NCBI GenBank assembly: GCA_043228905.1
Contig: JBHGNT010000010.1
Span: 17,608,001 to 17,672,000, forward strand
DNA from: Azolla caroliniana
Lineage: Eukaryota; Plantae; Polypodiophyta
DNA: 64,000 bases
Reading direction: 5' to 3'
The notes below the pieces were generated by a model. That model saw only the letters and a program-made list of their open reading frames with translations. It ran no database searches and was not told the DNA's origin. Below, piece after piece: positions 28,508 through 63,170 of the stretch (its first letter is position 1; every line of letters starts with the position of its first letter). The translations under genes and the position numbers were made by a program.

Positions 28508-30509
28508 GAGGAGATCAATTACGTCAGCTTCTCAGCTGATGTGCTACCAGACGACCCGAACATACTATCAATCGAAAATCCAGTCGGCTCAGAAGTTCTG
28601 CTCACGACTGAAGAATCGAGCACATGGCTCTTGGATTCGGGTGCGTCATTTCACGTGACTCCTCATCGATCCCAATTTCGGCAATATACGATCCGTCACT
28701 CCGACTCAGTTCGGGTCGGCAACTCACAACACTGTGACATCATCGGAATCGGCACAGTAGAGCTCAACCTTGCAGGTGGCTCTACACTTGTACTCCACAA
28801 TGTCCGACATGTACCCGAGCTCTCAAGGCCATTGATCTCAGTCGGACAACTAGATGAAGACGGCATTCGTGCCGGTTTCTCTTCGGGAGGGTGGACACTC
28901 CACAGGGGGAACCTCCTGCTTGCTAGAGGACCCAAGATACACTCACTGTATCCGTTACATGTTACGCTCAGAGAGGGTAACCTGTTTTTGGTGGATATTC
29001 CTGTGTCATCACTATGGCATCGAAGATTAGGACACCTCAGCAAGGCCGGCATAACGCATCTATCTAGAGCCGGATACATCCCTAAACTCTCCTTCTCCGA
29101 CCATCAATTCTGCGAGCATTGCCAGTATGGCAAACAAGCCGCCGCATCACACCCGACATCAGCACCAAGAGAAACGAGACCTCTCGATTTAGTCCATTCG
29201 GACGTCTGTGGCCCAATGCCGCATCAGTCTCTAGGCGGTGCCTCTTACTTCGTCACTTTTATTGACGATTCGACTCGAAAGGTGTGGGCTTATCCAATTC
29301 GCACCAAAGATCGGGTCTTCTCGATCTTCACCGATTGGCTCGCTATGGTGGAAAATCAAACCGACCGAAAGCTGAAATGCTTTCGGACAGACAATGGGGG
29401 AGAGTTTAAATCCGAAGAATTCGTCAAATTCTGCCGACAACGCGGCATCCGACGTGAATTTACGGCACCACACAGCCCGGAGCAAAACGGGATTGCCGAA
29501 CGCATGAATCGGACAATCCAAGAACGGATAGTTTCCATGCTCCAACACTCCGGACTGTCGGATGGCTTCTGGGCAGAGGCTCTACTCACGGCAGTACACA
29601 TAATCAATATGTCGCCAAGTAGACCTCTAGGACTTCAAATTCCTCAGGAACTATGGATCGGCAGTAAGCCGAATTACGACAAGCTGAGGATCTTCGGATG
29701 CGAGGCGTACGCTCTTATTCCGAAAGATGATCGCCGAAAACTTGCACCTCGGTCCAGGAAATGCATTTTCCTTGGATATGGATCCGACGGCGAAATGGGA
29801 TACCGACTCTGGGACCCCGAACGCAGACAAATCGTTCGAAGTTCGGACGTTGTGTTCAACGAGTCGGCTATGAATCCATCAGTCGAAAAACCGATCGAAG
29901 TCCGAAGGGTAACATTTTCCGATGTGCCGACCCTTCAAGAAGGCCCCGCTCACAACACACGGTCAGCTTCACGGGTAGCTGAACCTTACACTACCGACTC
30001 GGACAACTCCGACTCGGCACAGCCGAATGATTCGCTTTCGGACCATCCGACCCCGATACCCGATGCGACCAGTCCAATCTTACCTCGACGATCCGAGAGA
30101 CTGTCGCAACCTCCGGAGAGGTATTCTCCTGGAATTTTCTTCACCGACGCCGGTGAACCGACGTCTTACGAAGAAGCATCGACATCTGTCGATTCAGCCA
30201 CCTGGCATCTGGCGATGGAGTCGGAAATGCACTCCATTCGGGCAAACAAGACTTGGGATCTGGTTGAATTACCCAGGAACCGACGTGCTCTTCCTTGCAA
30301 GTGGGTTTATCGACTAAAAGAGACGTCTGATTCGACCACCCCAAAGTACAAGGCCAGATTAGTTGCGAAGGGCTTCCGACAAGAATATGGCGTCGACTTC
30401 GACGAGATTTTTTCACCAGTGGTGAAAATGACAACCCTTCGTTTCCTACTCGGCGTAGTGGCAGCCGACAACTTGGAGCTGATTCAGCTAGATGTCAAAA
30501 CAGCCTTCC
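28508..30509 (+). mobile_element. Internal fragment of Copia family B (protease, integrase, N-terminal RT)
   Basis: ORF 28541-30565 is nearly identical to the corresponding part of the intact polyprotein at 45197-49228 (WLLDSGASFH, HSDVCGP, FIDD, RTDNGGEF, NGIAER, LDVKTAF). It lacks its own 5' LTR and gag. Confidence 0.95.
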
Positions 30510-32132
30510 TGTTGGAGACAATGTCGTCTGTGCGGAAGATCAAGAAGCATTCGATTCTTCTCTGAGTACCTGCGTATGAGAGATTGTAGGTCGTTGCACA
30601 GAGAGAGAGAGAGAGAGAGAGGCACAAAAGAGTCTTTATTTCATAAAGCAAATAATACAACAACCAACCTCACAAAGAGGTTACAAGGTCACTATATATA
30701 GTGACCGACTTAGGGCAACTACCCTTTATGCTAATTACATAAATGGCCAAAACGGGATAGTGTGAATACGTCCATTATACACATGTATTCGACACTCCCC
30801 CGTAATGGGCGTATACATGGGTTATCTAAGATTACAGGTATAGACTTAGGTTCTCGGACATATCAGCTTTGTTCGAGTCGGCAGGGTCCGAAGGCAGAAG
30901 ACCGAACTGGTCGGGTCGGAACAGTTGAAGCCGATCATTAAGGAACTGATGTCGGTTGTCGGGAACCATCCTGCTCTGTGTCCGGCTCTAACCGGACTGG
31001 TTTGTCGTTACGCCCATCTGATGCCGAAGAGACCGAAAGCGGTCTGCCGAAAGACACTTGGTCATTCCATCTGCGACATTGTCGGTTGTGGATATTTTCT
31101 CTAGACCGATTTTCCCTGAAATGACGCAGTCCCGAACGAAGTGATATCGAACGTCGATATGCTTGGAGGCGTTGTGGTGAACCGGATTTTTCGACAGGGC
31201 AACAGCGCCTTGACTGTCGCTATAGACAACTAGGGCCGAGTCATGGTCGACTTGCCGAAACGTGTGCGCCAGCCGACCAAGCCATAAGGCTTCTTTTGCT
31301 GCGTCGGACGCAGCTACATATTCTGCTTCGGTCGTTGAGGTCGCTGTGCACTCCTGAAGTTTCGACTTCCACGAGATTGCTCCATTGCCGAATTTGAAGC
31401 AGTATCCGGTTGTTGATTTCCGACTGTCTATACAGCCGGCGAAATCCGAGTCGGTGTAACCGACTACGCCTGAGGTTCGGTTCGGACCGAAAAGAATGCC
31501 GTGATCTTTTGTGCCAGCCAGATATCTGAACACATGCTTGACTGCGTTCCAATGCGATCGGCCAGGATTGTGCATAAATCTGCTAACGACTCCTACGGCA
31601 TGAGAGATATCAGGCCGTGTCGCGACCATCAGGTACATAAGGGAGCCGACTGCCGGTGCATACGGTACCGACTTCATATCTTCCCCCTCCGAACCGGATG
31701 TCGGGCAGTCTCGCTGAGAGAGCCGAAGATTCATAGGGAGCGGGGTTGAAGCAGATTTGGCTGATTGCATGTTGAAGCGTTCCAAGACACGTCCGATATA
31801 GTCGGTCTGAGACAAAAAAAGATGTCGTTTATCGCGATGCCGACTAATCTTCATGCCAAGGATGTGTCGTGCCGGACCGAGGTCCTTCATGGCAAACTTC
31901 AACCGCAGTTGCCGAACGAGATCGGCAAGTTCGCCCGCGTGGCGTCCAGAAATTAGCATGTCGTCCACGTAAATGATGAGGAAGATGGGTGATCCATCTT
32001 GAGCTGTATTGGTGAAGAGACAATGGTCCTCATCGCTTTTGGAGAAGCCGATCGATTGGATGAAGTCGTCGAACTTCTTGTACCATTGTCGTGGTGCCTG
32101 TTTGAGGCCGTATAGACTCTTCCTGAGTCGGC
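30510..32132 (-). mobile_element. 3' part of another Copia family B copy (RT end, RNase H, 3' LTR), opposite orientation
   Basis: LTR 30510-30794 (TG...CA), PPT complement CTCCCCCGT at 30795-30803, ORF 30988-32130 with YVDD and RNase H. Runs into the assembly gap. Confidence 0.93.
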
Positions 32133-32134
32133 GG

Positions 32135-32159
32135 AGTACTCTGCGTTGATGCCAGTCGC
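32135..32159 (-). other. Library adapter remnant (SMART / PacBio ultra-low-input type oligo)
   Basis: AGTACTCTGCGTTGATGCCAGTCGC closely matches the reverse complement of AAGCAGTGGTATCAACGCAGAGTACT (16 exact nt, then a few mismatches) and replaces the expected Copia sequence at the contig end. Confidence 0.85.
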
Positions 32160-32259
32160 NNNNNNNNNNNNNNNNNNNNNNNNNNNNNNNNNNNNNNNNN
32201 NNNNNNNNNNNNNNNNNNNNNNNNNNNNNNNNNNNNNNNNNNNNNNNNNNNNNNNNNNN
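32160..32259. other. Scaffold gap (100 N)
   Basis: Run of 100 N. Confidence 1.
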
Positions 32260-44693: not shown

Positions 44694-47600
44694 TGTTAGA
44701 GACAAAGCCGTGTCGATGCGGAAGATCAAGCAGCATTCGATTAGGGTTGAGTACCTGCGTATGACAGTTTCCAAGATCGTGCACAGAGATAGAGAGAGAG
44801 AGAGAGAGAGAGGAGGCACAAAAGACTCTTTCTATTCCATAGAAACAATAATACAACCAACCTTACAAAAAGGTTACTAGGTCACTTTATATAGTGACAA
44901 ACTTAGGGCAACTACCATTTATGCTAATTACACAAATGGCCCAAACTTGAGCTATACAAAGGGATTGTGTGAATACGTCCATTATACACTTGTATTCGAC
45001 ACTCCCCCGTAATGGGCGTATACATGGGTTATCTAAGATTACAGGTATAAACCTAGGTTCTCGGACATATCAGTTTTTTGTTCGGGTCGGCAGGGTCCGA
45101 AGGCAGAAGACCGGACTGGTCGGGTCGGAAGAGTTGAAGCCGATCATTAAGGAACTGATGTCGGTTGTCTGAAACCATCCTGCGCTGTGTCCGGCTCTAA
45201 CCGGACTGGTTTGTCGTTACGCCCATCTGATGCCGAAGGGACCGAAAGCGGTCTGCCGAAAGACACTTGGTCATTCCATCTGCGACATTGTCGGTTGTGG
45301 ATATTTTCTCTAGACCGATTTTCCCTGAAATGACGCAGTCCCGAACGAATTGATATCGAACGTCGATATGTTTGGAGGCGTTGTGGTGAACCGGATTTTT
45401 CGACAAGGCAACAGCACCTTGACTGTCGCTATAGACAACTGGGGCCGAGTCATGGTCGACTTGTCGAAACGTGTGCGCCAGCCGGCCGAGCCACAAAGCT
45501 TCTTTTGCAGCGTCGGACGCAGCTACATATTCTGCTTCGGTCGTTGAGGTCGCTGTGCACTCCTGAAGTTTCGACTTCCACGAAATTGCTCCATTGCCGA
45601 ATTTGAAGCAGTATCCAGTTGTTGATTTCCGACTGTCTATACAGCCGGCGAAGTCCGAGTCGGTGTAACCGACTACGCCTGAGGTTGAGTTCGGACCGAA
45701 AAGAATGCCGTGGTCTTTTGTGCCAGCCAGATATTTGAACACAAGCTTGACTGCGTTCCAATGCGATCGGCCAGGATTGTGCATAAATCTGCTAACGACT
45801 CCTACGGCATGAGAAATATCAGGCCGTGTCGCGACCATCAGGTACATAAGGGAGCCGACTGCCGGTGCATACGGTACCGACTTCATATCTTCCCCCTCCG
45901 GACCGGATGTCGGGCAGTCTCGCTGAGAGAGCCGAAGATTCATGGGGAGCGGGGTTGAAGCAGATTTGGCTGATTGCATGTTGAAGCGTTCCAAGACACG
46001 TTCGATATAGTCGGTCTGAGACAAAAAAAGATGTCGTTTATCGCGATGCCGACTAATCTTCATTCCAAGTATGTGTCGTGCCGGACCGAGGTCCTTCATG
46101 GCAAACTTCAACCGCAATTGTCGAATGAGATCGGCAAGTTCGCCCGCGTGGCGTCCAGAAATTAGCATGTCGTCCACGTAAATGATGAGGAAGATGGGTG
46201 ATCCATCTTGAGCTGTGTTGGTAAAAAGACAATGGTCCTCATCGCTTTTTGAGAAGCCAATCGATTGGATGAAGTCATCGAACTTCTTGTACCATTGTCG
46301 CGGTGCCTGTTTGAGGCCGTATAGACTCTTCCTGAGTCGGCAGACTAGATGTTCTTGGCCAGTTGCCACGAAGCCTTTTGGCTGCTCCATATAAATTTCC
46401 TCTTCAAGATCACCATGGAGGAAGGCTGTTTTGACATCTAGCTGAATCAGCTCCAAGTTGTCGGCTGCCACTACGCCGAGTAGAAAACGAAGGGTTGTCA
46501 TTTTCACCACTGGTGAAAAAATCTCGTCGAAGTCGACGCCATATTCTTGTCGGAAGCCCTTCGCAACTAATCTGGCCTTGTACTTTGGGGTGGTCGAGTC
46601 AGACGTCTCTTTTAGTCGATAAACCCACTTGCAAGGGAGAGCACGTCGATTCTTAGGTAATTCGACCAGATCCCAAGTCTTGTTTGCCCGAATGGAGTGC
46701 ATTTCCGACTCCATCGCCAGATGCCAGGTGGCTGAATCGACAGATGTCGATGCTTCTTCGTAAGACGTCGGTTCGCCGGCGTCGGTGAAGAAAATTCCAG
46801 GAGAATACCTCTCCGGAGGTTGCGACAGTCTCTCGGATCGTCGAGGTATGATTGGACTGGTCGTATCGGGTATCGAGGTCGGATGGTCCGAAAGCGAATT
46901 ATTCTGCTGTGCCGAGTCAGAGTTGTCCGAGTCGGTAGTGTAAGGTTCAGCTACCCGTGAAGCTGACCGTGTGTTGAGAGCGGGGCCTTCTTGAAGGGTC
47001 GGCACATCGGAAAATGTTACCCTTCGGACTTCGATCGGTGTTTCGACTGATGGAATCATAGCCGACTCGTTGAACACAACGTCCGAGCTTCGAACGATTT
47101 GTCTGCGTTCGGGGTCCCAGAGTCGGTATCCCATTTCGCCGTCTGATCCATATCCAAGGAAAATGCATTTCTTGGACCGAGGTGCAAGTTTTCGGCGATC
47201 ATCTTTCGGAATAAGGGCGTACGCCTCGCATCCGAAGATCCTCAGCTTGTCGTAATTCGGCTTACTGCCGATCCATAGTTCCTGAGGAATTTGAAGTCCT
47301 AGAGGTCTGCTTGGCGACATATTGATTATGTGTACTGCCGTGAGTAGAGCCTCTGCCCAGAAGCCATCCGACAGTCCGGAGTGTTGGAGCATGGAAACTA
47401 TCCGTTCTTGGATTGTCCGATTCATGCGTTCTGCAATCCCGTTTTGCTCCGGACTGTGTGGTGCCGTAAATTCACGTCGGATGCCGCGTTGTCGGCAGAA
47501 TTTGACGAATTCTTCTGATTTGAACTCTCCCCCATTGTCGGTCCGAAAGCATTTCAGTTTTCGGTCAGTTTGATTTTCTACCATAGCGAGCCAATCGGAG

Positions 47601-50281
47601 AAGATCGAGAAGACACGATCTTTGGTGCGAATTGGATAAGCCCACACCTTTCGAGTCGAATCGTCAATAAAGCTGACGAAGTAAGAGGCACCGCCGAGAG
47701 ACTGATGCGGCATTGGGCCACAGACGTCCGAGTGGACTAAATCGAGAGGTCTCGTTTCTCTTGGTGCTGATGTCGGGTGTGATGCGGCTGCTTGTTTGCC
47801 ATACTGGCAATGTTCGCAGAATTGATGGTCCGAGAAGGAGAGTTTAGGGATGTATCCGGCTCTAGATAGGTGCGTAATGCCGGCCTTGCTGAGGTGTCCT
47901 AATCTTCTGTGCCATAGTGATGACACAGGAATATCCACCAAAAACAGGTTACCCTCTCTGAGCGTAACATGTAACGGATACAGTGAGTGTATCTTGGGTC
48001 CTCTAGCAAGCAGGAGGTTCCCCCTGTGGAGTGTCCACCCTCCCGAAGAAAAACCGGCACGAATGCCGTCTTCATCTAGTTGTTCGACTGAGATCAATGG
48101 CCTTGAGAGCTCGGGTACATGTCGGACATTGTGAAGTACAAGTGTAGAGCCACCTGCAAGGTTGAGCTCTACTGTGCCGATTCCAATGATGTCACAGTGT
48201 TGCGAGTTGCCGACTCGAACTGAGTCGGAGTGACGGATCGTATATTGCCGAAATTGGGATCGATGAGGAGTCACGTGAAATGACGCGCCCGAATCTAAGA
48301 GCCATGTGCTCGATTCTTCAGTCGTGAGCAGAACTTCTGATCCGACTGGATTTTCGATTGATAGTATATTCGGGTCGTTTGGTAGCACATCAGCTGAGAA
48401 GCTGACGTAGTTGATCTCCTCATGCCGGCCACTCTTCTTGTCTGAATTCTGAGACTTGTCGTTCTTGTTCTTGAGTGCGCGGCAGTCGGCTTTGATGTGT
48501 CCGAGTTTCTTGCAATAGTTGCAGATTCGATTATCCCGTGACTGGCTCCGTCTTCGCTGATTGTTTGGCTGCCGTGAGGAATCTCTTCCTCGTATGTTCG
48601 ATCGGTCTGTCGAACCTTGTACTACATAAGCTTCGTCTGTTGAGTCTTTGGCGAAAGACTTTCTCCGAGCTGCTTCGGTCAGGATTGCGCTCGTGACTTC
48701 GGAGTATTTAACAGCCGTGGTTGACGCGTTGCACACGGTTGTGACGAAAGTCTCCCATGATAAGGGAAGGCTGCTCATGAGTATCATTGCTCTGAGTTCA
48801 TCCTCGATTGCCGTCCCCTGAGAGGAGATTTGGGAGCTTATGCTTTCGTACTCATTGAGATGTGCTTGAACCGAATCTGATTCTTTCATCCGCAAGTTGT
48901 AGAGGCGCCGGATCAGAAACATCTTTGTTGCAGCGACCTTCTTTTCGTAGGTGTCCGACAGTGTTTTCCACAGTTCGAATGCTGTCGTACACGATTGCAC
49001 CGTAAAGTATACCGATTCCGATAGGTGCATCCGAATCGTGGCGCGGACGATTCTGTCCAGCTTCTGCCACTCAATTGGTTTGTATCCTTCTGGAGGTTCT
49101 TCATTTTCGATGGGATCGATTTGCCCCTTGACTATGAGATAGTCCTGCATTTGCTCCTTCCAGAAGTTGAAGTTCGATCCATCGAACTTTCGTAGACTCA
49201 TTTCTGACGAGCCGGATGTTGATGCCATCAAATTTGGTTTCGGTTGACGAAGCTCGGTTCGGAGTTGACTACGAACCTTGTTGGAGTGCAGCCGGTTGGC
49301 TCACCCGATATCGTTCTAGTCGGATTTGAACCCGAGTCGGTTCGGCTTCGGATATATGTATTGTTGAACTTGCTCGAATTGACTCCGGTAACTTGAGGGA
49401 CAAAACCGACTGGTCTTCCCGAATGTTGCTGAGTCGGAGTGAGCCCGATTCGCTTCCGAATATATATATGCCAACTACCGATTATTGAAACCGATTGTCT
49501 GGACCGATTCTGCTTCGGGTGACTGCAGCGACGAGAGAGACGGATCCAACTGATCCTCCCGAATGTCGATCAGCCGGATGAAGCACGAATTGGGGTTGTT
49601 GTCTTGAGACCGATCTGCACCGAGTGGTTACAATGAGCGGCGAGCAGCGTTTGATGACCTCTTCGGATGCCGTTTAACCGAGTGGAGCACGATCGTGTCA
49701 ATGTTGCACAAGGGGATTTCACCTCGAGCGGTTACGATCACAAGGAACAGAGTACAACCACTCCAAGCAAAGATGATCTAACGCGATGAGATGCAAGCCT
49801 CGTTTTTCTTCTTCTTCTCTGTTTCTTCGAATGGCGCAAGAAGCCGAATGCTTTGCAGACTAGGATGAAGCGAAAGGCCGAATACTGTGCAGGCTGTGAT
49901 GACGCGAAGAACCGAATGTTGCGCAGGCTGAGACGACGGCCGACAGCGGGTTGAGGGACCTTCGCTCTGATACCAAATGTTAGAGACAAGGCCGTGTCGA
50001 TGCGGAAGATCAAGCAGCATTCGATTAGGGTTGAGTACCTGCGTATGACAGTTTCCAAGATCGTGCACAGAGATAGAGAGAGAGAGAGAGAGGAGGCACA
50101 AAAGACTCTTTCTATTCCATAGAAACAATAATACAACCAACCTTACAAAAAGGTTACTAGGTCACTTTATATAGTGACAAACTTAGGGCAACTACCATTT
50201 ATGCTAATTACACAAATGGCCCAAACTTGAGCTATACAAAGGGATTGTGTGAATACGTCCATTATACACTTGTATTCGACA
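44694..50281 (-). mobile_element. Intact, very young Ty1/Copia LTR retrotransposon (family B, Tnt1-like)
   Basis: LTRs 49978-50281 (5') and 44694-45001 (3') differ by one substitution plus GA-repeat length. TSD GAACC (44689-44693, 50282-50286), PBS complement GCTCTGATACCA at 49964-49975, PPT at 45002-45010. Confidence 0.98.
45197..49228 (-). CDS. Copia Gag-Pol polyprotein, 1343 aa, uninterrupted
   Basis: Single ORF: Gag, CCHC knuckle (CNYCKKLGHIKADC), protease LLDSGA, GAG-pre-integrase, integrase D-D-E, RT YVDD, RNase H. Confidence 0.97.
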   Translation of the reverse strand: MASTSGSSEMSLRKFDGSNFNFWKEQMQDYLIVKGQIDPIENEEPPEGYKPIEWQKLDRIVRATIRMHLSESVYFTVQSCTTAFELWKTLSDTYEKKVAATKMFLIRRLYNLRMKESDSVQAHLNEYESISSQISSQGTAIEDELRAMILMSSLPLSWETFVTTVCNASTTAVKYSEVTSAILTEAARRKSFAKDSTDEAYVVQGSTDRSNIRGRDSSRQPNNQRRRSQSRDNRICNYCKKLGHIKADCRALKNKNDKSQNSDKKSGRHEEINYVSFSADVLPNDPNILSIENPVGSEVLLTTEESSTWLLDSGASFHVTPHRSQFRQYTIRHSDSVRVGNSQHCDIIGIGTVELNLAGGSTLVLHNVRHVPELSRPLISVEQLDEDGIRAGFSSGGWTLHRGNLLLARGPKIHSLYPLHVTLREGNLFLVDIPVSSLWHRRLGHLSKAGITHLSRAGYIPKLSFSDHQFCEHCQYGKQAAASHPTSAPRETRPLDLVHSDVCGPMPHQSLGGASYFVSFIDDSTRKVWAYPIRTKDRVFSIFSDWLAMVENQTDRKLKCFRTDNGGEFKSEEFVKFCRQRGIRREFTAPHSPEQNGIAERMNRTIQERIVSMLQHSGLSDGFWAEALLTAVHIINMSPSRPLGLQIPQELWIGSKPNYDKLRIFGCEAYALIPKDDRRKLAPRSKKCIFLGYGSDGEMGYRLWDPERRQIVRSSDVVFNESAMIPSVETPIEVRRVTFSDVPTLQEGPALNTRSASRVAEPYTTDSDNSDSAQQNNSLSDHPTSIPDTTSPIIPRRSERLSQPPERYSPGIFFTDAGEPTSYEEASTSVDSATWHLAMESEMHSIRANKTWDLVELPKNRRALPCKWVYRLKETSDSTTPKYKARLVAKGFRQEYGVDFDEIFSPVVKMTTLRFLLGVVAADNLELIQLDVKTAFLHGDLEEEIYMEQPKGFVATGQEHLVCRLRKSLYGLKQAPRQWYKKFDDFIQSIGFSKSDEDHCLFTNTAQDGSPIFLIIYVDDMLISGRHAGELADLIRQLRLKFAMKDLGPARHILGMKISRHRDKRHLFLSQTDYIERVLERFNMQSAKSASTPLPMNLRLSQRDCPTSGPEGEDMKSVPYAPAVGSLMYLMVATRPDISHAVGVVSRFMHNPGRSHWNAVKLVFKYLAGTKDHGILFGPNSTSGVVGYTDSDFAGCIDSRKSTTGYCFKFGNGAISWKSKLQECTATSTTEAEYVAASDAAKEALWLGRLAHTFRQVDHDSAPVVYSDSQGAVALSKNPVHHNASKHIDVRYQFVRDCVISGKIGLEKISTTDNVADGMTKCLSADRFRSLRHQMGVTTNQSG

Positions 50282-50477: not shown

Positions 50478-50768
50478 GTTGGTGTTGTCAATGCATTTGG
50501 AGGTGGTGGTGCATATGAAGAGGAGTGAGTGGGTGTGCCATCAAGATAGATGCCATAAGAAGAGAGTCTATGGTTGTGGAGTCTCTACGATGAAACTCCC
50601 TTTCCCATTATTGTCTGATCTGCTTGGGGTGTGTCATTAACGATGAGGTTGGTGTTGTCAATGCATTTGGAGGTGGTAGTGCATATGAAGAGGAGTGAGG
50701 GGGTATCATCAAGATACATGTCATAAGAAGAGAGTCTACGTTTGTGGAGTCTCTACGATGAAACTCCA
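50478..50768. repeat. About 120-bp direct duplication
   Basis: gttggtgttgtcaatgcatttggaggtggt...gagtctctacgatgaaactcc at about 50478 and about 50648. Confidence 0.85.
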
Positions 50769-50804
50769 TGTTCTTCAAAATGTGGTCAAGGTATATGAAG
50801 GCGG

Positions 50805-52298
50805 TGTCATGACACAGTGACATGAAATATATAGTTGGTGAGGATTGAACCTACAACCTCACATCAACAAAATGTCATGCTCAACCATTTTGATATGAGC
50901 ATGCATTTGTGTATAATAGTTTCGTATTCTATAGTCTAGTATATTTCAGAATCAGAATATTCTAGTCGTTGGTATATTCTAGAAATATTGTACGGTATAT
51001 TCTAGAGACATTTTTCGAGTATATTCTAGAGATATTCAATCTCAAAACTTGTATAAATAGTTGTAACCTCCTTGGTCCCTTTCAAGGGATTCAAACGGTC
51101 ATGGGCACACCAACCACAAACTTGGACAGAGCATGGATGATGGGGCTATGACCGTGGAACTTAAGAAGTTAGGAATGACACAAGAGCATCAAGACATAGA
51201 TGAAGATCAAGGAGACAAGTGACGGGAACTCAACGCTCCTTATGTCCAACACTCGGCCACAACCACGATTCTTTTCATACACAGAAAAACGGGAAACAAA
51301 TGCACGTGACACAACGGAGAGAAAAGGGTACACAGAATGTTTACGTAGAAAACCCAAAGAGGGATAAACCATGGCAGCCCACAGGCTGCAAACTATCACT
51401 ATATTGGAATGTACAAACAGTGAGTTCACGGAGGCAACGACCTCGTGCTCACGATCTTCACCACAGGCGGCGGTTACAACAGAGGCACGACCTCGTTCTC
51501 TCTCTCTCTCTCAACCTGTACACTGTTACACGCTCTCACTTCTTGCACCAACAAGAAAATGACAACCCTTTCTAAAAGTTTGCCCTAAGTCATATTTATA
51601 CTAATATGACTTTTCGGCTATTTACAAATATAGCCTCGATGGGCTCTCAGAAACATATTTACGAATATGTCTATTCCTCCGGTTCTCACCGGGTCTACGT
51701 CATCCAGCTCTTCGTAGCCGGGTGCTCCTCATCCGGTTCTCACCGGGCCTGTATCATCCGGCTCTCCGTAGCCGGGTACTCCTCATCCGGTTCATACCGG
51801 GTCTGCACCATCCGGCTCTCCATAGCCGGGTACTCCTCTTCTGATTCTCACCGAGCCTGTACCATCCGGTTCTCCGTAACCGGGTCCACCTCATACGGAT
51901 TCGGCCTCGGCCGAGTTTGTTCGTCGGCACTATTCTTCTCCCTTCCCATTCGGAGGGACCTGTCTCCCAACAACAAGATGGAATTGAACAAGAAGACTAG
52001 ATTGATGTGTCAATGACTGGCTTTGAATCCCTTGAAAGGGACCAAGGAGGTTACAAGTATTTATACAAGTTCTGAGATTCAATATCTCTAGAATATACCG
52101 TGCAATATTTCTAGAATATACTAACGACTAGAATATTTTGATTCTGAAATGTATTATATGCTAGACTATACTAGAATATTAAAGTACTATACACCAATGC
52201 ATGTTCATATCAAAATGGTTGAGCATGACATTTTGTTGATGTGAGATTTTAGGTTCAATCCTCACCAACTATATATTTCATGTCATTGTGTCGTGACA
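50805..52298. mobile_element. Non-coding element with about 300-bp inverted terminal arms, TG...CA ends and a 5-bp TSD
   Basis: Left arm 50805 to about 51112 is the reverse complement of the right arm, about 52000 to 52298. TSD GGCGG at 50800-50804 and 52299-52303. Confidence 0.88.
51220..51972 (-). mobile_element. Solo LTR (753 bp) nested in the inverted-repeat element
   Basis: TG...CA termini, TSD ACAAG (51215-51219, 51973-51977). The minus strand carries a Tnt1-like U5 motif CCATGGTTTATCCC...GGGTTTTCTACGTAA, a TATA box and ~54-bp CCGG-rich tandem repeats (51675-51890) in U3. Confidence 0.88.
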
Positions 52299-53079
52299 GG
52301 CGGGGGAACAGATGTGGGATGTGAAAGGGGGATAATGTTAGTTGTGTTATTGAGGTTAGCAGGGTTGTTGGGAGGTGCCTTGGGGCCTATTGATAATGAT
52401 CAGGCAATGTCATCATGGTCTTCAACGTTGGCCTATGGAGCTATCATCGCAATACCTATGGTCAAGTAGTGTGCATGTAAGGTGTGGTTTGGTTTTTCTA
52501 TATGCTTGGAAGTTGGGTGGGATCAGTGAGCCCCTTAATGAATAATATTATCATGATTGCTATTTTTAAATTAATTAATCAATTAATTTACCTATCTATC
52601 AATTTCATCTTTTGATTATATTTAACCATTTGATTTAATTATGCATTTATCGACTATGTAATAATAATAAGCATAATATTGTTATTACGGGCATTTCTAG
52701 CTTATACTTACTATTATTTATATAAGTATTTACTTGATAATTACTAGTAGTAATCTTATTTATTTGTTATAAGAATTATTATGTGTTTATTTAGATTTAG
52801 ATTTATTTATGTGGGAGTCGGGAGTATGACAAATAAGGGGATGGACAAATAAAGTTTACTCTCTACCAAATAGGAGAATTGGTGGTGCCATGCATAGGTG
52901 GGGTGTGGTTTTGAGAAGAGTTTTTAGCATGTGTAAGATGGATGGGTGGTCCTTGGGTAACAAGCTTGCATCACATCATGTGCAGAGGCGGGTAACCAAG
53001 ACAAAATAGTTCACCGAAACCATCTTGGCTTTATCACAAATTGCTTCAACACATGCCAAAAAGAATTCCCTTTTGTCAC

Positions 53080-55499: not shown

Positions 55500-58400
55500 T
55501 CCAAATTCTTTTGTTAATAATTCATCACTTGCATAATGCTGGAGTTAGAGACTACATCCCCACAACACATATTGGGCCATGACTTGTTGCCCATACATTT
55601 TTCATTTCACTCACATTCGGCCTCATTGAACTAGCCTTTTTTTCTTCCTTCACTGCTAATTTAAGTTTAATCTTGTTTAAACACTCATTTGTTCCTTGTG
55701 AACCTTGCTTATATTCTCTAATCTCATTGAGTTTTGAAACTATTTTCTTAAGACTCTCATTCTCAATAACAATAACTTCTAGTTTTGCATTCTCTTTCAT
55801 GAGGGCATTAATCTCTTCACCTAATTTGTTTATGTTTTCTTGAAGAGAAATCAAATGGTTGATAAGCTATGGTTGAGTTTGTTGAATTAATATTAAGAAT
55901 ATTTTCAATTTGTTCTAGACACATTTGAAACCACAATGAACTTTCAAACTTAATAAATATGGAGAATTAAGGATCTACATACATTTTGAAAGAGATATTG
56001 GTTTGCAAAGAGGGCCATGCCGTAATGTGATTACTCATCCATTTTTTCGTGCTCTAAAACACCAAGGAATCTATGGAATTATCAAGCCTACTTAAAACAT
56101 AGTGGTATATGATCCATATTCACACTTATAATCAACATTGGTTTTGTGCAAGAATCCATATTTTGGTAAGGCAAATGTCACGACTCACTCTCAATGTTTA
56201 AACTTGATTGTTTGTAGTTAATTTACAAAAAGTTTGAAGAACAAGAACTTAATCTGTTTTCTAAAAAGATAAATATCAGGTTTTCTATCTATCCACTTTA
56301 GAGTCGGTCCAAAGAAAAAGTATTAAGTACCCAACACAATTAGTGGGAGAAAAGTATTTAGAATCCACCTCTGACAAGCATAGATAGAATCATAGATATA
56401 TTATTATCTCTCCTCTCAAAGTTCATACAACCTCCGAAAAGTATTAAGTGACCAATCAGCCTCCAAAACAATACAAAGTTACCTATCTCTCCTCTCAAAG
56501 TTCATACATCTTTAACCTCAAACCTTGTAAGTATCGACAACGGTTTACTATCTATCAAATTTTAATGAGTCCCAAGATAGGTTCTTTTCACAGGAGATTA
56601 TTAGTTTCCTCTATTGATTGATCATGAGCCCATACTCATTGAGTTTGGGCATTCTGATCATTCTATGCTTGGAGGATCTGTCAAATCTAAAGTTGTCCAT
56701 TGTTTGAAAAAACTCACAACATATTTTTCTTCCACTTGTTACATGTTTTTATGCCATAGCTCATTAGTATTGTAGGGTCTACCCTCTACAAATTGAATGT
56801 TCTATTTTGAGATTGCATAGTTCGAAAACATGTCAAAAATGCGATATTAAAATGTGCTAGATTGGTCATTTATTTGATTTGTTTGATTGTCCACCAAGGT
56901 TTTTTGCACTTCGATGTATCCTTGAGTAAACAAATTTGTATTGGTTGCACAACCCAACCATTTTGTCCTAGAATCTTGTGTACGTGCTTTCATTGAAAAT
57001 TTTGAGCATGGATGGTTTGATCCTTGTTCCTTTGTGAGAACTAAATCCTTCAAGAAGTTTTTTATTTTTTCAAATAGAGTTGTTTATCTCTTGTATCCTC
57101 GAGGGATTTGGGGAGGTAATCGAGAATTGTGATGGTATTTTGATTTGAAGTTTATCAAAAAAGATGCTTGTATTGTCCATGTCATGCGGTGGTGGCAAAG
57201 GTCTCTCCTAACGAATGTTGTGGAAAGGATTGCCCCACATACAATGGTTACAGAGATGGTTGTCCCACCATCATATTTGGGAGAATCGTCTCAACAATCA
57301 TCATGTGTGGGACAACCCTCTCCACAACCTTCATTTGTGGGGAGACCTTCTCCGCAATCACATGATACGGACAAGAATGAGCACCTTTTCAACAAATCGA
57401 GACACGACGATATCAAAATGTCACTGCAATTCCCGGATTACCTCACCAAAGCACTTGGAGAATACAAGAGACTAATGATTCTCCTAACAAAAACACTTCT
57501 TGAGTTCAAAAAAAGGAACAAAGGTTTCATCCTGATAATTTGTGGACCAAATTACCCAAGTTCAAAATGTTCGACAATAGAAGGTGCAACCAATACAAAG
57601 TTGGTCTACTCGACGTTTACATTGAAGTATAAAAAACTTTGGTGGACAATCAAACACATCAAGCAAGTGATTATTTTGGCATATTTGAATCTTGCATTTC
57701 TCGAGCTATTAAACCTCAAAATTTTCGACACATGTGAGGTTATCATAGAACATTCAATTTTAGGAGCTACACGCTACAATGCCAATGAGTTGTGTAACAC
57801 ATGTAGCAAGTGAAAATAAAATATGGAGATCAACAACTTTAAGCTGAAATAGTTCCTCCAAGCGTATGATGATCGCAATGCTCAAAATCAACGAAAGAAG
57901 GTCGCACTCAACCTTATGCCAAACAAATTGTGAAAGTTCAATGTAACCAAAAAAACAAAAGAGATGGCAATCCCACTTGTATCCATAGATACAAAACTCG
58001 TGGTCAAAATAACACCGCCTCTAATCAACAAGGTGTAGCACAACCATAGAAAGGGAAAGAAAAAATGGAGATCCAAGGGAACCAAGAGAATTGTAAATAA
58101 GCGAAGCCTAAAACTAATAGATGAGGAGGGGACGACTCAATCCATCCCTTTAATTGTTCACATTTCATCTTCACGGCCACACTAATGTTTTAGAGATATG
58201 GTTTTGTGGAGAAAATAAACAATTCTCAACCATCAAATAACGATTCCAAACATTGATAAGAACCCTCTTTTGGCTTCCTTTTGTAAGCCCAAAAGAATAC
58301 AACGTTTGTCTTCTCAAAAAATAAATAAATCAAGGAGCTAAGAATTTTGGGATATCCAATAAGGCTATCCATAATCTATCTTCCTACTCTTTGACATACC

Positions 58401-61846: not shown

Positions 61847-62935
61847 CTACAGCCATTCGATAGTGCACTTGCTCTCCATGTTCTTTAGACAGCTTAAAGG
61901 AATGTATCTCCTCAAATCTTTATCCAAACCAAGATACTCTAAAATATGGCAACCACTGACTATTGCTTCCACATCCTCTCTTAGAATATTCTGACAAGAA
62001 GAAAGAGTTATTGCTTGAACACGAGCAAAACCTTGCAATGACAATCCAGTGACTAAATCACATCCTGAAAGTACTAACTCTTTGATATCATTGCAATCTG
62101 CTTGGATTGCAAGTATGGACAAATCCGAAACTTTTGAAAGCCATGAAAGATTCAATCTTTGTAGTGACTTCAACGAAGCTAGTAATATAACCCCCCTATC
62201 TGTGATGCTTGAACCGCATTTAGCAAGAGAAAGGTCTTGCAAGGATACCATTTGAGGTAAAAGACCTATTCCTTCATCAGTTATTCGAAAACATTCACAT
62301 AAATCTAGCGTTTTCAGGCTCGAAGAAGTCTTACCTCGAGCAAGAAAGTGAATGCCAACATCACTAACCATCTTACAACCCTCTAAGATCAAACTTTCCA
62401 AACAGTTCGCATTGGATATAGCCTCAAGGGCAATATTCGTGATCCTTTCGCATCGAGAAAGATCGAGATGAGACAGAGAAAAACATCCACATATCAGAGA
62501 ACGTATACCCCGATCCTCGACATTGCTTCTCCACCGTAGATTCACTCGCTGAAGATTCTTGCAGGACGAAGCAATGGCTGAGATTCCCTCACTCCCGACC
62601 CCCCTACACTTCTCATTCTCTTCGGTGAAATTAAGGTCGACAAGGTCACGTGACTTCGATAAGCCAAGATTTAGGGTTTGCAGGGAAGAGCATGAGCGTG
62701 AGATGAAAGAGAGGTCTGCGTCTGAGAGACCTCTTCCTGCGTCTAAAGAGAGGAGACGAGGGAAGCGATGGAGGAAGCTGAAGAGAAGGGATGGGTCTAA
62801 GATTCGAAGCTCTGTTCTGGTTTTGCCTTCAGCAAGGAGCCATCGTTTGCAGACCTGGGCACAGGATTTCCTGTCGACGCGACCTCTGATTCTGCACAGG
62901 ATGAGGAAGAGCTCATCGTCGCTCAATCGATTCAT
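61847..62935 (-). CDS. F-box/LRR-repeat protein (FBL-type, cysteine-containing LRRs), intronless CDS, about 362 aa
   Basis: N-terminal F-box 'MNRLSDDELFLILCRI...AQVCKRW' followed by LRR_CC repeats (LSHLDLSRCERITN, LESLILEGCKMVSD, LKTLDLCECFRITD). ATG 62935 is preferred over the in-frame ATG at 62986. Confidence 0.9.
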   Translation of the reverse strand: MNRLSDDELFLILCRIRGRVDRKSCAQVCKRWLLAEGKTRTELRILDPSLLFSFLHRFPRLLSLDAGRGLSDADLSFISRSCSSLQTLNLGLSKSRDLVDLNFTEENEKCRGVGSEGISAIASSCKNLQRVNLRWRSNVEDRGIRSLICGCFSLSHLDLSRCERITNIALEAISNANCLESLILEGCKMVSDVGIHFLARGKTSSSLKTLDLCECFRITDEGIGLLPQMVSLQDLSLAKCGSSITDRGVILLASLKSLQRLNLSWLSKVSDLSILAIQADCNDIKELVLSGCDLVTGLSLQGFARVQAITLSSCQNILREDVEAIVSGCHILEYLGLDKDLRRYIPLSCLKNMESKCTIEWL

Positions 62936-63007
62936 GGGGAAGGAGAACGGAATATGGATGGGACGCAGGGTTTCGCGTACATACATGAAGAGAGGAGCTT
63001 CTTCTCC

Positions 63008-63170
63008 TACTACGTATGTATGTATGTATGTATTTATACGTACGTACGTACGTATTTATACATACGTATGTGGGGTACGTATTCGTATGTGCATCACAAT
63101 GTATGTACGTACGTATAAAATGTAAGTACGCATTTCGACTCATATGCATATGTACGTACATACACACGCT
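63008..63170. repeat. TACG/TATG-rich alternating purine-pyrimidine tract upstream of the F-box gene
   Basis: tacgtatgtatgtatg...tacgtacgtacgta...tacgtacgta. Confidence 0.85.

What the first reader, a model, noticed from the sequence alone, without database searches (positions are those of the whole stretch)
50805..52298. Integrase-style insertion with inverted LTR-like arms (foldback 'U3-U3' element)
Seen: TG...CA termini, a perfect 5-bp TSD (GGCGG), and about 300-bp arms that are inverted rather than direct repeats. Removing the nested solo LTR leaves a ~735-bp non-coding element that is mostly hairpin. Each arm looks like an LTR U3, ending in TATAAATA (51052; complement at 52058) facing inward. 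Established: TG...CA with a 5-bp TSD is the LTR-integrase signature but LTRs are direct repeats; plant long-TIR elements have other TSDs (Mutator about 9 bp, hAT 8 bp, CACTA 3 bp) and DIRS elements with inverted repeats make no TSD. Inference: either a new non-autonomous family mobilised by a retroviral-type integrase (Ginger-like DNA transposon or LTR-derived MITE), or a one-off integration of an aberrant cDNA with two U3 ends.
Basis: partly seen in the sequence, partly recalled or inferred. Interest (0 to 1): 0.8.

Follow-up and report, generated by a model that had tools for sequence, protein, structure and literature searches.

The report
Foldback accident of self-priming retrotransposon
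This hairpin-shaped insertion in a fern genome is one ordinary end-repeat of a very common jumping gene plus a mirror copy of that repeat's first 290 bases, likely made once by a copying slip at the site where the element primes its own replication, and not a new kind of DNA transposon.

Summary
In detail: TG...CA ends, GGCGG duplication, arms 94% identical, nested 753-bp solo LTR. The unit is not a TIR element. The arm is the U3 of a high-copy LTR family. Other copies follow a polypurine tract or unrelated flanks, and the LTR ends at 51097, 444 bp without the nest. In 59 relative loci, 34 distinct U5 ends gave 21 flank, 12 PBS plus non-coding interior and 1 PBS plus inverted U3. The PBS is an 11-nt complement of the LTR 32 nt below TATA, with four compensatory changes in one subfamily: Tf1/sushi-type self-priming. 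The locus is a solo LTR (minus strand), 2 nt, the PBS, then an inverted U3, joined exactly at that complementarity. It is likely a reverse-transcription accident integrated by two U3 ends. No second U3-U3 copy was seen; L005 shares only the first junction. The host genome was not searchable. The scan holds no look-alike sequence but noted another inverted-LTR hybrid in this genome.

The parts
50800..50804 (+). Left target-site duplication GGCGG
50805..51094 (+). Inverted extra copy of U3 plus the first 11 nt of R (self-primer). Carries a 24-bp insertion in its 23-24-bp repeats and 10 bp of deletions against the other arm
51052..51059 (+). TATA box of the inverted U3 copy
   Evidence: function inferred
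51084..51096 (-). 2-nt spacer plus 11-nt primer-binding site after the U5 end. It is also the complement of the self-primer, i.e. the junction homology
   Evidence: same 13 nt (exactly or nearly) follow the U5 end in 11 of 12 PBS-class ends of relatives; the 12th is the covarying variant
51097..51219 (-). 3' part of R and U5 of the solo LTR. U5 terminus at 51097, terminal base mutated in this copy
   Evidence: family letter T at 51097, and X6 record 30 starts at 51098 with 72 unaligned letters; relatives end here
51220..51972 (.). Nested solo LTR of an unrelated, more abundant family, 753 bp, with four 54-bp repeats; ACAAG at 51215-51219 and 51973-51977
51978..52298 (-). U3 and 5' part of R of the solo LTR. 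TATA 52065-52058; self-primer 52033-52023, 32 nt below TATA
52299..52303 (+). Right target-site duplication GGCGG

Best explanation
The locus is a 444-bp solo LTR of a high-copy fern LTR family followed by its primer-binding site and an inverted copy of its own U3, likely produced once during reverse transcription and likely inserted by an integrase using two U3 ends. Shown: the anatomy, the family's PPT and PBS, and the PBS/self-primer complementarity with covariation. Inferred steps: (1) the family starts minus-strand synthesis with the first 11 nt of its own RNA, as Tf1 does; (2) the plus-strand cDNA therefore ends in a single-stranded PBS tail that is complementary to the U3-R boundary of any plus strand; (3) that tail annealed there, on its own or a sibling strand, and was extended to the PPT-defined U3 end; (4) an integrase supplied in trans joined the two U3 ends, giving the 5-bp duplication; any interior was never present or was lost later by LTR-LTR recombination; (5) an unrelated LTR inserted later. 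The product lacks a PPT and a second R, so it is predicted to be unable to retrotranspose again.
For: Arm depth is hundreds to thousands of times flank depth in 4 of 4 runs (the tool warns that this is no copy number). Loose ends at the U3 terminus in 58, 50, 53 and 30 contigs share an 11-letter PPT complement at agreement 0.39-0.44, which simulation fits with about 30-40% PPT-bearing ends. Contigs with the family letter at 51097 against those with the family letter at 51105: 11/35, 16/31, 14/35 and 1/5, a similar share, as expected for PBS-side ends. Relatives: 34 distinct U5 ends, 21 flank, 12 PBS+interior, 1 PBS+inverted U3. Solo LTRs with a perfect 5-bp TSD in 2 of 5 copies with both ends; 2 others were PBS-side and 1 mismatched. 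Direct LTR pairs with PPT and 745-1293 bp interiors. Self-primer and PBS covary at 4 of 11 positions in the L002/L007 subfamily. The predicted 5' RNA of L053 folds primer onto PBS, z -3.45, 0 of 200 shuffles as good. About 50% of Tf1 cDNA keeps a single-stranded PBS tail (PMC11042837, passages). TSD-flanked template-switch products are known (PMC1950507, passages). L005 shows the same U3/self-primer/inverted-U5 junction on a U3 that is 83-87% like its own family and 72-74% like ours.
Against: No read or contig was shown to span the inner junction. The host's own PBS and interior were not read directly; they are taken from a relative with about 72-75% U3 identity. The arms differ by 6% plus 34 gap columns, which must be post-insertion change or a sibling template. 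L005 returns to the interior after 118 nt, which shows that two-switch inversions occur and favours rival 1. L005 is one contig at 1.8x coverage and could be a library chimera. In L007 and L037 the variant PBS also follows an LTR with the standard self-primer. No autonomous partner was found.
Confidence: 0.6

Rival explanations
1. The same structure made after insertion. A resident full-length copy was rearranged by two template switches, or by single-strand annealing of an incoming cDNA: first at the self-primer/PBS, then at the 6-nt homology between the U3 and U5 termini. This keeps the old TSD and deletes the interior.
For: L005 is a two-switch inversion at the same first junction. Tf1 cDNA inserts without integrase at PBS-like sites and at resident copies via Rad52 (PMC11042837). 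Both arms share minority letters at 50871/52232 and 50911/52192.
Against: It needs two precise switches, the second within the last 6 nt. The right end is U3-type to its last base. Shared minority letters also fit one parent element.
Confidence: 0.25
2. A propagating non-autonomous TIR family (Ginger2/TDD-like or LTR-derived MITE), born from this LTR and moved as DNA.
For: TGTNR ends, 5-bp TSD and about 290-bp inverted repeats match TDD-4/5 (TIR 260 and 297 bp, 5-bp TSD; PMC2836005). The 11-16 contigs with T at 51097 could in part be further palindromes.
Against: 0 of 34 distinct U5 ends in relatives belong to a U3-U3 unit. Depth at 51097 is 0.4-10.5% of the depth at 50871 (a soft bound). The features are fully explained by LTR anatomy. 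No transposase is linked.
Confidence: 0.08
3. The family's LTR is itself a 736-bp palindrome and this is a plain solo LTR; or the inversion is an assembly error.
For: The inner and right junctions are not independently bridged.
Against: The family LTR ends at 51097. Each arm carries its own departures from the family majority, so they are distinct sequences. The TSD is intact.
Confidence: 0.07

Closest known systems
Tf1/sushi-group self-priming LTR retrotransposons (Tf1, Tj1, Tosmo; plant Tcn1 clade; also TAR copia) - bioRxiv 10.1101/2022.12.06.519325, PMC4600332, PMC6317226 (passages)
   Same: PBS complementary to the LTR below TATA, an adjacent R-U5 duplex, TGTCA...TGACA ends as in Tj1 and Tosmo, 5-bp TSD, LTR of about 410-520 bp, PPT.
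   Different: The copies seen are non-coding (0.75-1.3 kb interior of tandem repeats), so lineage cannot be assigned by protein. The host is a fern, where a PCR survey found no Tcn1 (PMC2864245). This copy has an inverted U3 appended.
Template-switch complex LTR insertions (Sabot and Schulman 2007, PMC1950507, passages)
   Same: One TSD around an aberrant multi-LTR unit, ascribed to a switch during reverse transcription; rare (2 among 400 LTR insertions in their table).
   Different: Theirs have three direct LTRs; the word 'inverted' does not occur in that text. Ours is inverted and joined at a self-priming PBS.
Ginger2/TDD and GingerRoot/IS3EU DNA transposons (PMC2836005, PMC10045372 passages; PMC6839031 parts 2-3 of 7)
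   Same: TG...CA ends with long inverted repeats; TDD-4/5 have a 5-bp TSD. Bao et al. proposed that Ginger1 TIRs arose from two opposed LTRs.
   Different: No transposase and no second copy; the arms are U3s of a PPT/PBS-bearing family. GingerRoot has a 6-bp TSD and mostly TA...TA ends.
TRIM/LARD-type non-autonomous LTR retrotransposons (definition partly recalled; PMC6934838 and PMC4079214 seen as search listings only)
   Same: The parent family has direct LTRs, PBS, PPT, a non-coding interior and tandem arrays (L007).
   Different: Self-primed rather than tRNA-primed; at about 1.6-2.2 kb it is larger than typical TRIMs (recalled).

Membership tests
LTR retrotransposon LTR (parent family) | Direct terminal repeats around an interior | tested here: met
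   L007, L017, L037, in a relative
LTR retrotransposon LTR (parent family) | PPT before the 3' LTR | tested here: met
   host runs: loose-end consensus; relatives L018, L056, L007, L017, L037
LTR retrotransposon LTR (parent family) | TG...CA solo copies with a 5-bp TSD | tested here: met
   L011 and L048, 2 of 5 copies with both ends
Tf1/sushi-type self-priming | PBS complementary to the predicted RNA 5' end, not to a tRNA | tested here: met
   11-nt perfect match in 9 loci; covariation at 4 positions, one event; fold
Tf1/sushi-type self-priming | Transcript starts at the self-primer | not tested
   inferred from the 32-nt distance to TATA; no RNA data laid
Tcn1 / Tf1-sushi chromovirus | RT/INT phylogeny and chromodomain | tested here: inconclusive
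   no retroelement domain in 51 of 51 ORFs from four interiors; no autonomous partner seen among 92 of 206 ORFs scanned
Ginger2/TDD | TGTNR termini, 4-5 bp TSD, TIRs up to about 300 bp | tested here: met
   against PMC2836005; equally true of LTR ends
Ginger2/TDD | Integrase-like transposase, or TIRs shared with an element that has one | tested here: not met
   the arms belong to an LTR family with PBS and PPT; no transposase domain in the loci scanned
MITE / foldback TIR family | Many copies of the same TIR-bounded unit with distinct TSDs | tested here: not met
   0 further U3-U3 units in 59 loci of a relative; host genome not searchable
GingerRoot/IS3EU | 6-bp TSD, mostly TA...TA ends | tested here: not met
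   5-bp TSD, TG...CA

The most novel reading that the evidence does not exclude
Self-priming LTR elements routinely throw off U3-U3 foldback cDNAs at their PBS, and in this fern some have been amplified as TIR-bounded DNA elements: a living example of the proposed LTR-to-TIR step in Ginger origins.
Probability: 0.1. Interest if true: 0.75.

Novelty: new variant of a known kind. Interest (0 to 1): 0.36.

Why it matters
As a single locus it is a dead insertion. Two points have wider value. First, it gives a testable rule: inversions joined exactly at the PBS should recur in self-priming families (Tcn1, TAR, Tf1/sushi) and not in tRNA-primed ones. Such units would mimic TIR transposons in annotation and could yield hairpin RNA. 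Second, it documents a high-copy, non-coding, self-priming LTR family in ferns, supported by compensatory changes. I did not find either described in searches; these cover open-licence PMC and bioRxiv only, and Repbase was not available.

Tried and rejected
The terminal 25-mer found 0 hits in metagenome contigs and the core 21-mer 0 in viral contigs. My first reading (Ginger-like, 55%) was dropped. The joints 51094 to 52016-21 and 51219 to 51991 first looked like proof of a palindromic family; they only show normal LTR continuity. A tRNA-Met PBS guess was replaced. L005 was first read as a second U3-U3 copy and corrected. L022 and L059 were first read as two copies; they are 98% identical, with an identical centre, from two assemblies. 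A tRNA-like look of the arm's first 100 nt was not supported: no tRNA family in Rfam to E 10 and 0 genes by ARAGORN. The open frame across the left spacer was not followed up. One search's shuffle control used a wrong coordinate and was redone; its PPT simulation was unaffected. L008 overlaps L007 and was dropped from the tallies. The regex missed some ends (e.g. L050) and called only 1 of 16 U3 starts PPT; L056 is PPT by eye, and L046/L049 show a degenerate tract. The Linum preprint (passages) was irrelevant. No supplements were read; the REXdb files listing self-primers may bear on lineage.

Full report
Observation. The element 50805-52298 starts TGTCA, ends TGACA and is flanked by GGCGG on both sides. 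The arms align at 94.0% (250 matches, 16 mismatches, 34 gap columns); the local score is 383 against a maximum of 31 in 500 shuffles. A 753-bp TG...CA element with an ACAAG duplication is nested at 51220-51972, leaving 736 bp. Folded as single-stranded DNA the two arms pair along their length. The host is likely a fern: the best named relatives of the F-box/LRR gene at 61850-62989 are Adiantum proteins at 53-54%. The window also holds several copia elements.

Host-side evidence from public runs. I laid contigs of runs X1, X2, X4 and X6 on 50700-52021 and of X1, X2, X4 and X11 on 51960-52345, 5 of the 14 runs listed. Flank depth in X1 is 34 and arm bins are 21,000-164,000; the tool warns that this is no copy number, but the arm is plainly a high-copy repeat, also in organisms B and C. 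Several contigs begin at 50803-50805 with other flanks. At the U3 terminus 58, 50, 53 and 30 contigs run on into other sequence. Their consensus has low agreement (0.39-0.44), yet begins with the same 11 letters in all four runs, the complement of a purine tract. Simulation gives this for about 30-40% motif-bearing ends and never for 0-5%. So many arms are the start of a 3' LTR. The family has T at 51097 and A at 51105, which restores a TGTCATG terminus there, and X6 record 30 aligns from 51098 with 72 unrelated letters before it. The joints I first took for palindrome evidence are only the continuity of a normal LTR.

Relatives. A scan with a conserved 21-mer gave 59 loci, with U3 about 70-75% and R about 74-99% like ours. 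Their LTRs end at the position equal to 51097. Of 39 U5 ends (34 distinct; L008 dropped as an overlap of L007), 21 run into flank, 12 into a shared leader and interior, and 1 (L005) into an inverted U3. L011 and L048 are solo LTRs with perfect 5-bp TSDs, 2 of 5 copies with both ends. Direct pairs with PPT enclose 745-1293 bp with no retroelement domain in 51 ORFs (one sub-threshold unrelated hit). The copies seen are therefore non-autonomous; the helper is unknown.

Self-priming. After the terminal CA and 2 nt, the leader is an 11-nt perfect complement of the LTR sequence 32 nt below TATA, in 9 loci. In the L002/L007 subfamily both sites changed at four positions and still pair. This is one event, and a standard-primer LTR also precedes the variant PBS in L007 and L037. 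The predicted RNA of L053 folds primer onto PBS with an adjoining R-U5 stem (z -3.45). This matches the Tf1/sushi mechanism, whose members Tj1 and Tosmo also have TGTCA...TGACA ends (bioRxiv 2022.12.06.519325, passages; PMC4600332, passages). In plants, self-priming is predicted for Tcn1 and TAR (PMC6317226, passages); Tcn1 was not amplified from ferns (PMC2864245, passages). Lineage membership stays untested.

Anatomy and mechanism. Read on the minus strand the locus is U3-R-U5 (52298-51097, 444 bp without the nest), 2 nt, the PBS (51094-51084), then inverted U3 to 50805. The junction lies exactly in the PBS/self-primer complementarity, beside a 13-of-16 inverted match between R and the U5 end. 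About half of Tf1 cDNAs keep a single-stranded PBS tail (PMC11042837, passages). I infer that such a tail annealed to the U3-R boundary of a plus strand and was extended to the U3 end, and that an integrase inserted the two-U3 product (0.6). A post-insertion route with two switches, or single-strand annealing on a resident copy, gives the same sequence (0.25). L005 supports a hotspot at this junction but returns to the interior after 118 nt, and it is a single low-coverage contig. The unit has no PPT and no second R, so it is predicted to be a dead end.

Comparison. The unit resembles TDD-4/5 in ends, TSD and repeat length (PMC2836005, passages) but fails on transposase and copy tests. GingerRoot differs in TSD and ends (PMC6839031, parts 2-3 of 7; PMC10045372, passages). 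The nearest described kind is the TSD-flanked template-switch complex (PMC1950507, passages), a lead I took from an earlier scan note; those are direct, not inverted. Searches returned no listing describing a PBS-joined U3-U3 insertion; I saw listings only for most of those hits.

Limits. The inner and right junctions were not shown bridged in independent data. The host's PBS and interior are inferred from a relative. The 11-16 host contigs that align across 51097 are most simply PBS-side ends but could include further palindromes.

Verdict. A real feature: a likely one-off foldback product of an ordinary-structured, self-priming, non-autonomous fern LTR family. New variant of a known kind; interest 0.36.

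Noticed in passing
window 56720-57145 and about 57410-57825: A second, older inverted duplication with arms of about 430 bp at roughly 75% identity. One TG...CA/5-bp candidate (56670-57877) lies outside the aligned arms and is unconvincing.
   Followed up: partly
window 52323-52337: A purine tract ending GATAA followed by TG, 24 nt right of the element: likely the PPT and 3' LTR start of another LTR element into which this one inserted.
   Followed up: no
L022 695-1157; L059 891-1319: Another foldback of the same family in the relative: LTR 1 to about 330 joined to an inverted U3 of about 165 nt at a different junction. Seen in two assemblies with an identical centre; no TSD in L022.
   Followed up: partly
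L005 895-1283: A 5' LTR in which R-U5 is replaced by 118 nt of inverted U5 after the self-primer, then returning to the interior.
   Followed up: yes
L007 1-7104: Tandem array of four LTRs and interiors with two alternating LTR types and an exact 3283-bp period, possibly partly an assembly loop. The interior is built of 46-54 bp and 30-33 bp repeats.
   Followed up: partly
L007 about 1366-1397; window 51076-51089: The end of U3 forms a small hairpin with the self-primer, and it changes together with the self-primer in the variant subfamily.
   Followed up: no
window 50957-51029 and 52088-52179: Four ATATTCTAG motifs per arm upstream of TATA, resembling heat-shock elements (motif recalled).
   Followed up: no
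window 28508-32138 and 44694-50281: Copia copy with 303 of 304 aligned LTR bases identical and an open 1367-aa frame; a close relative with an internal inversion next to an LTR lies at 28508-32138, beside the N gap at 32160-32259.
   Followed up: no
window 61850-63055 (-): F-box/LRR gene; the best named relatives are from Adiantum.
   Followed up: partly
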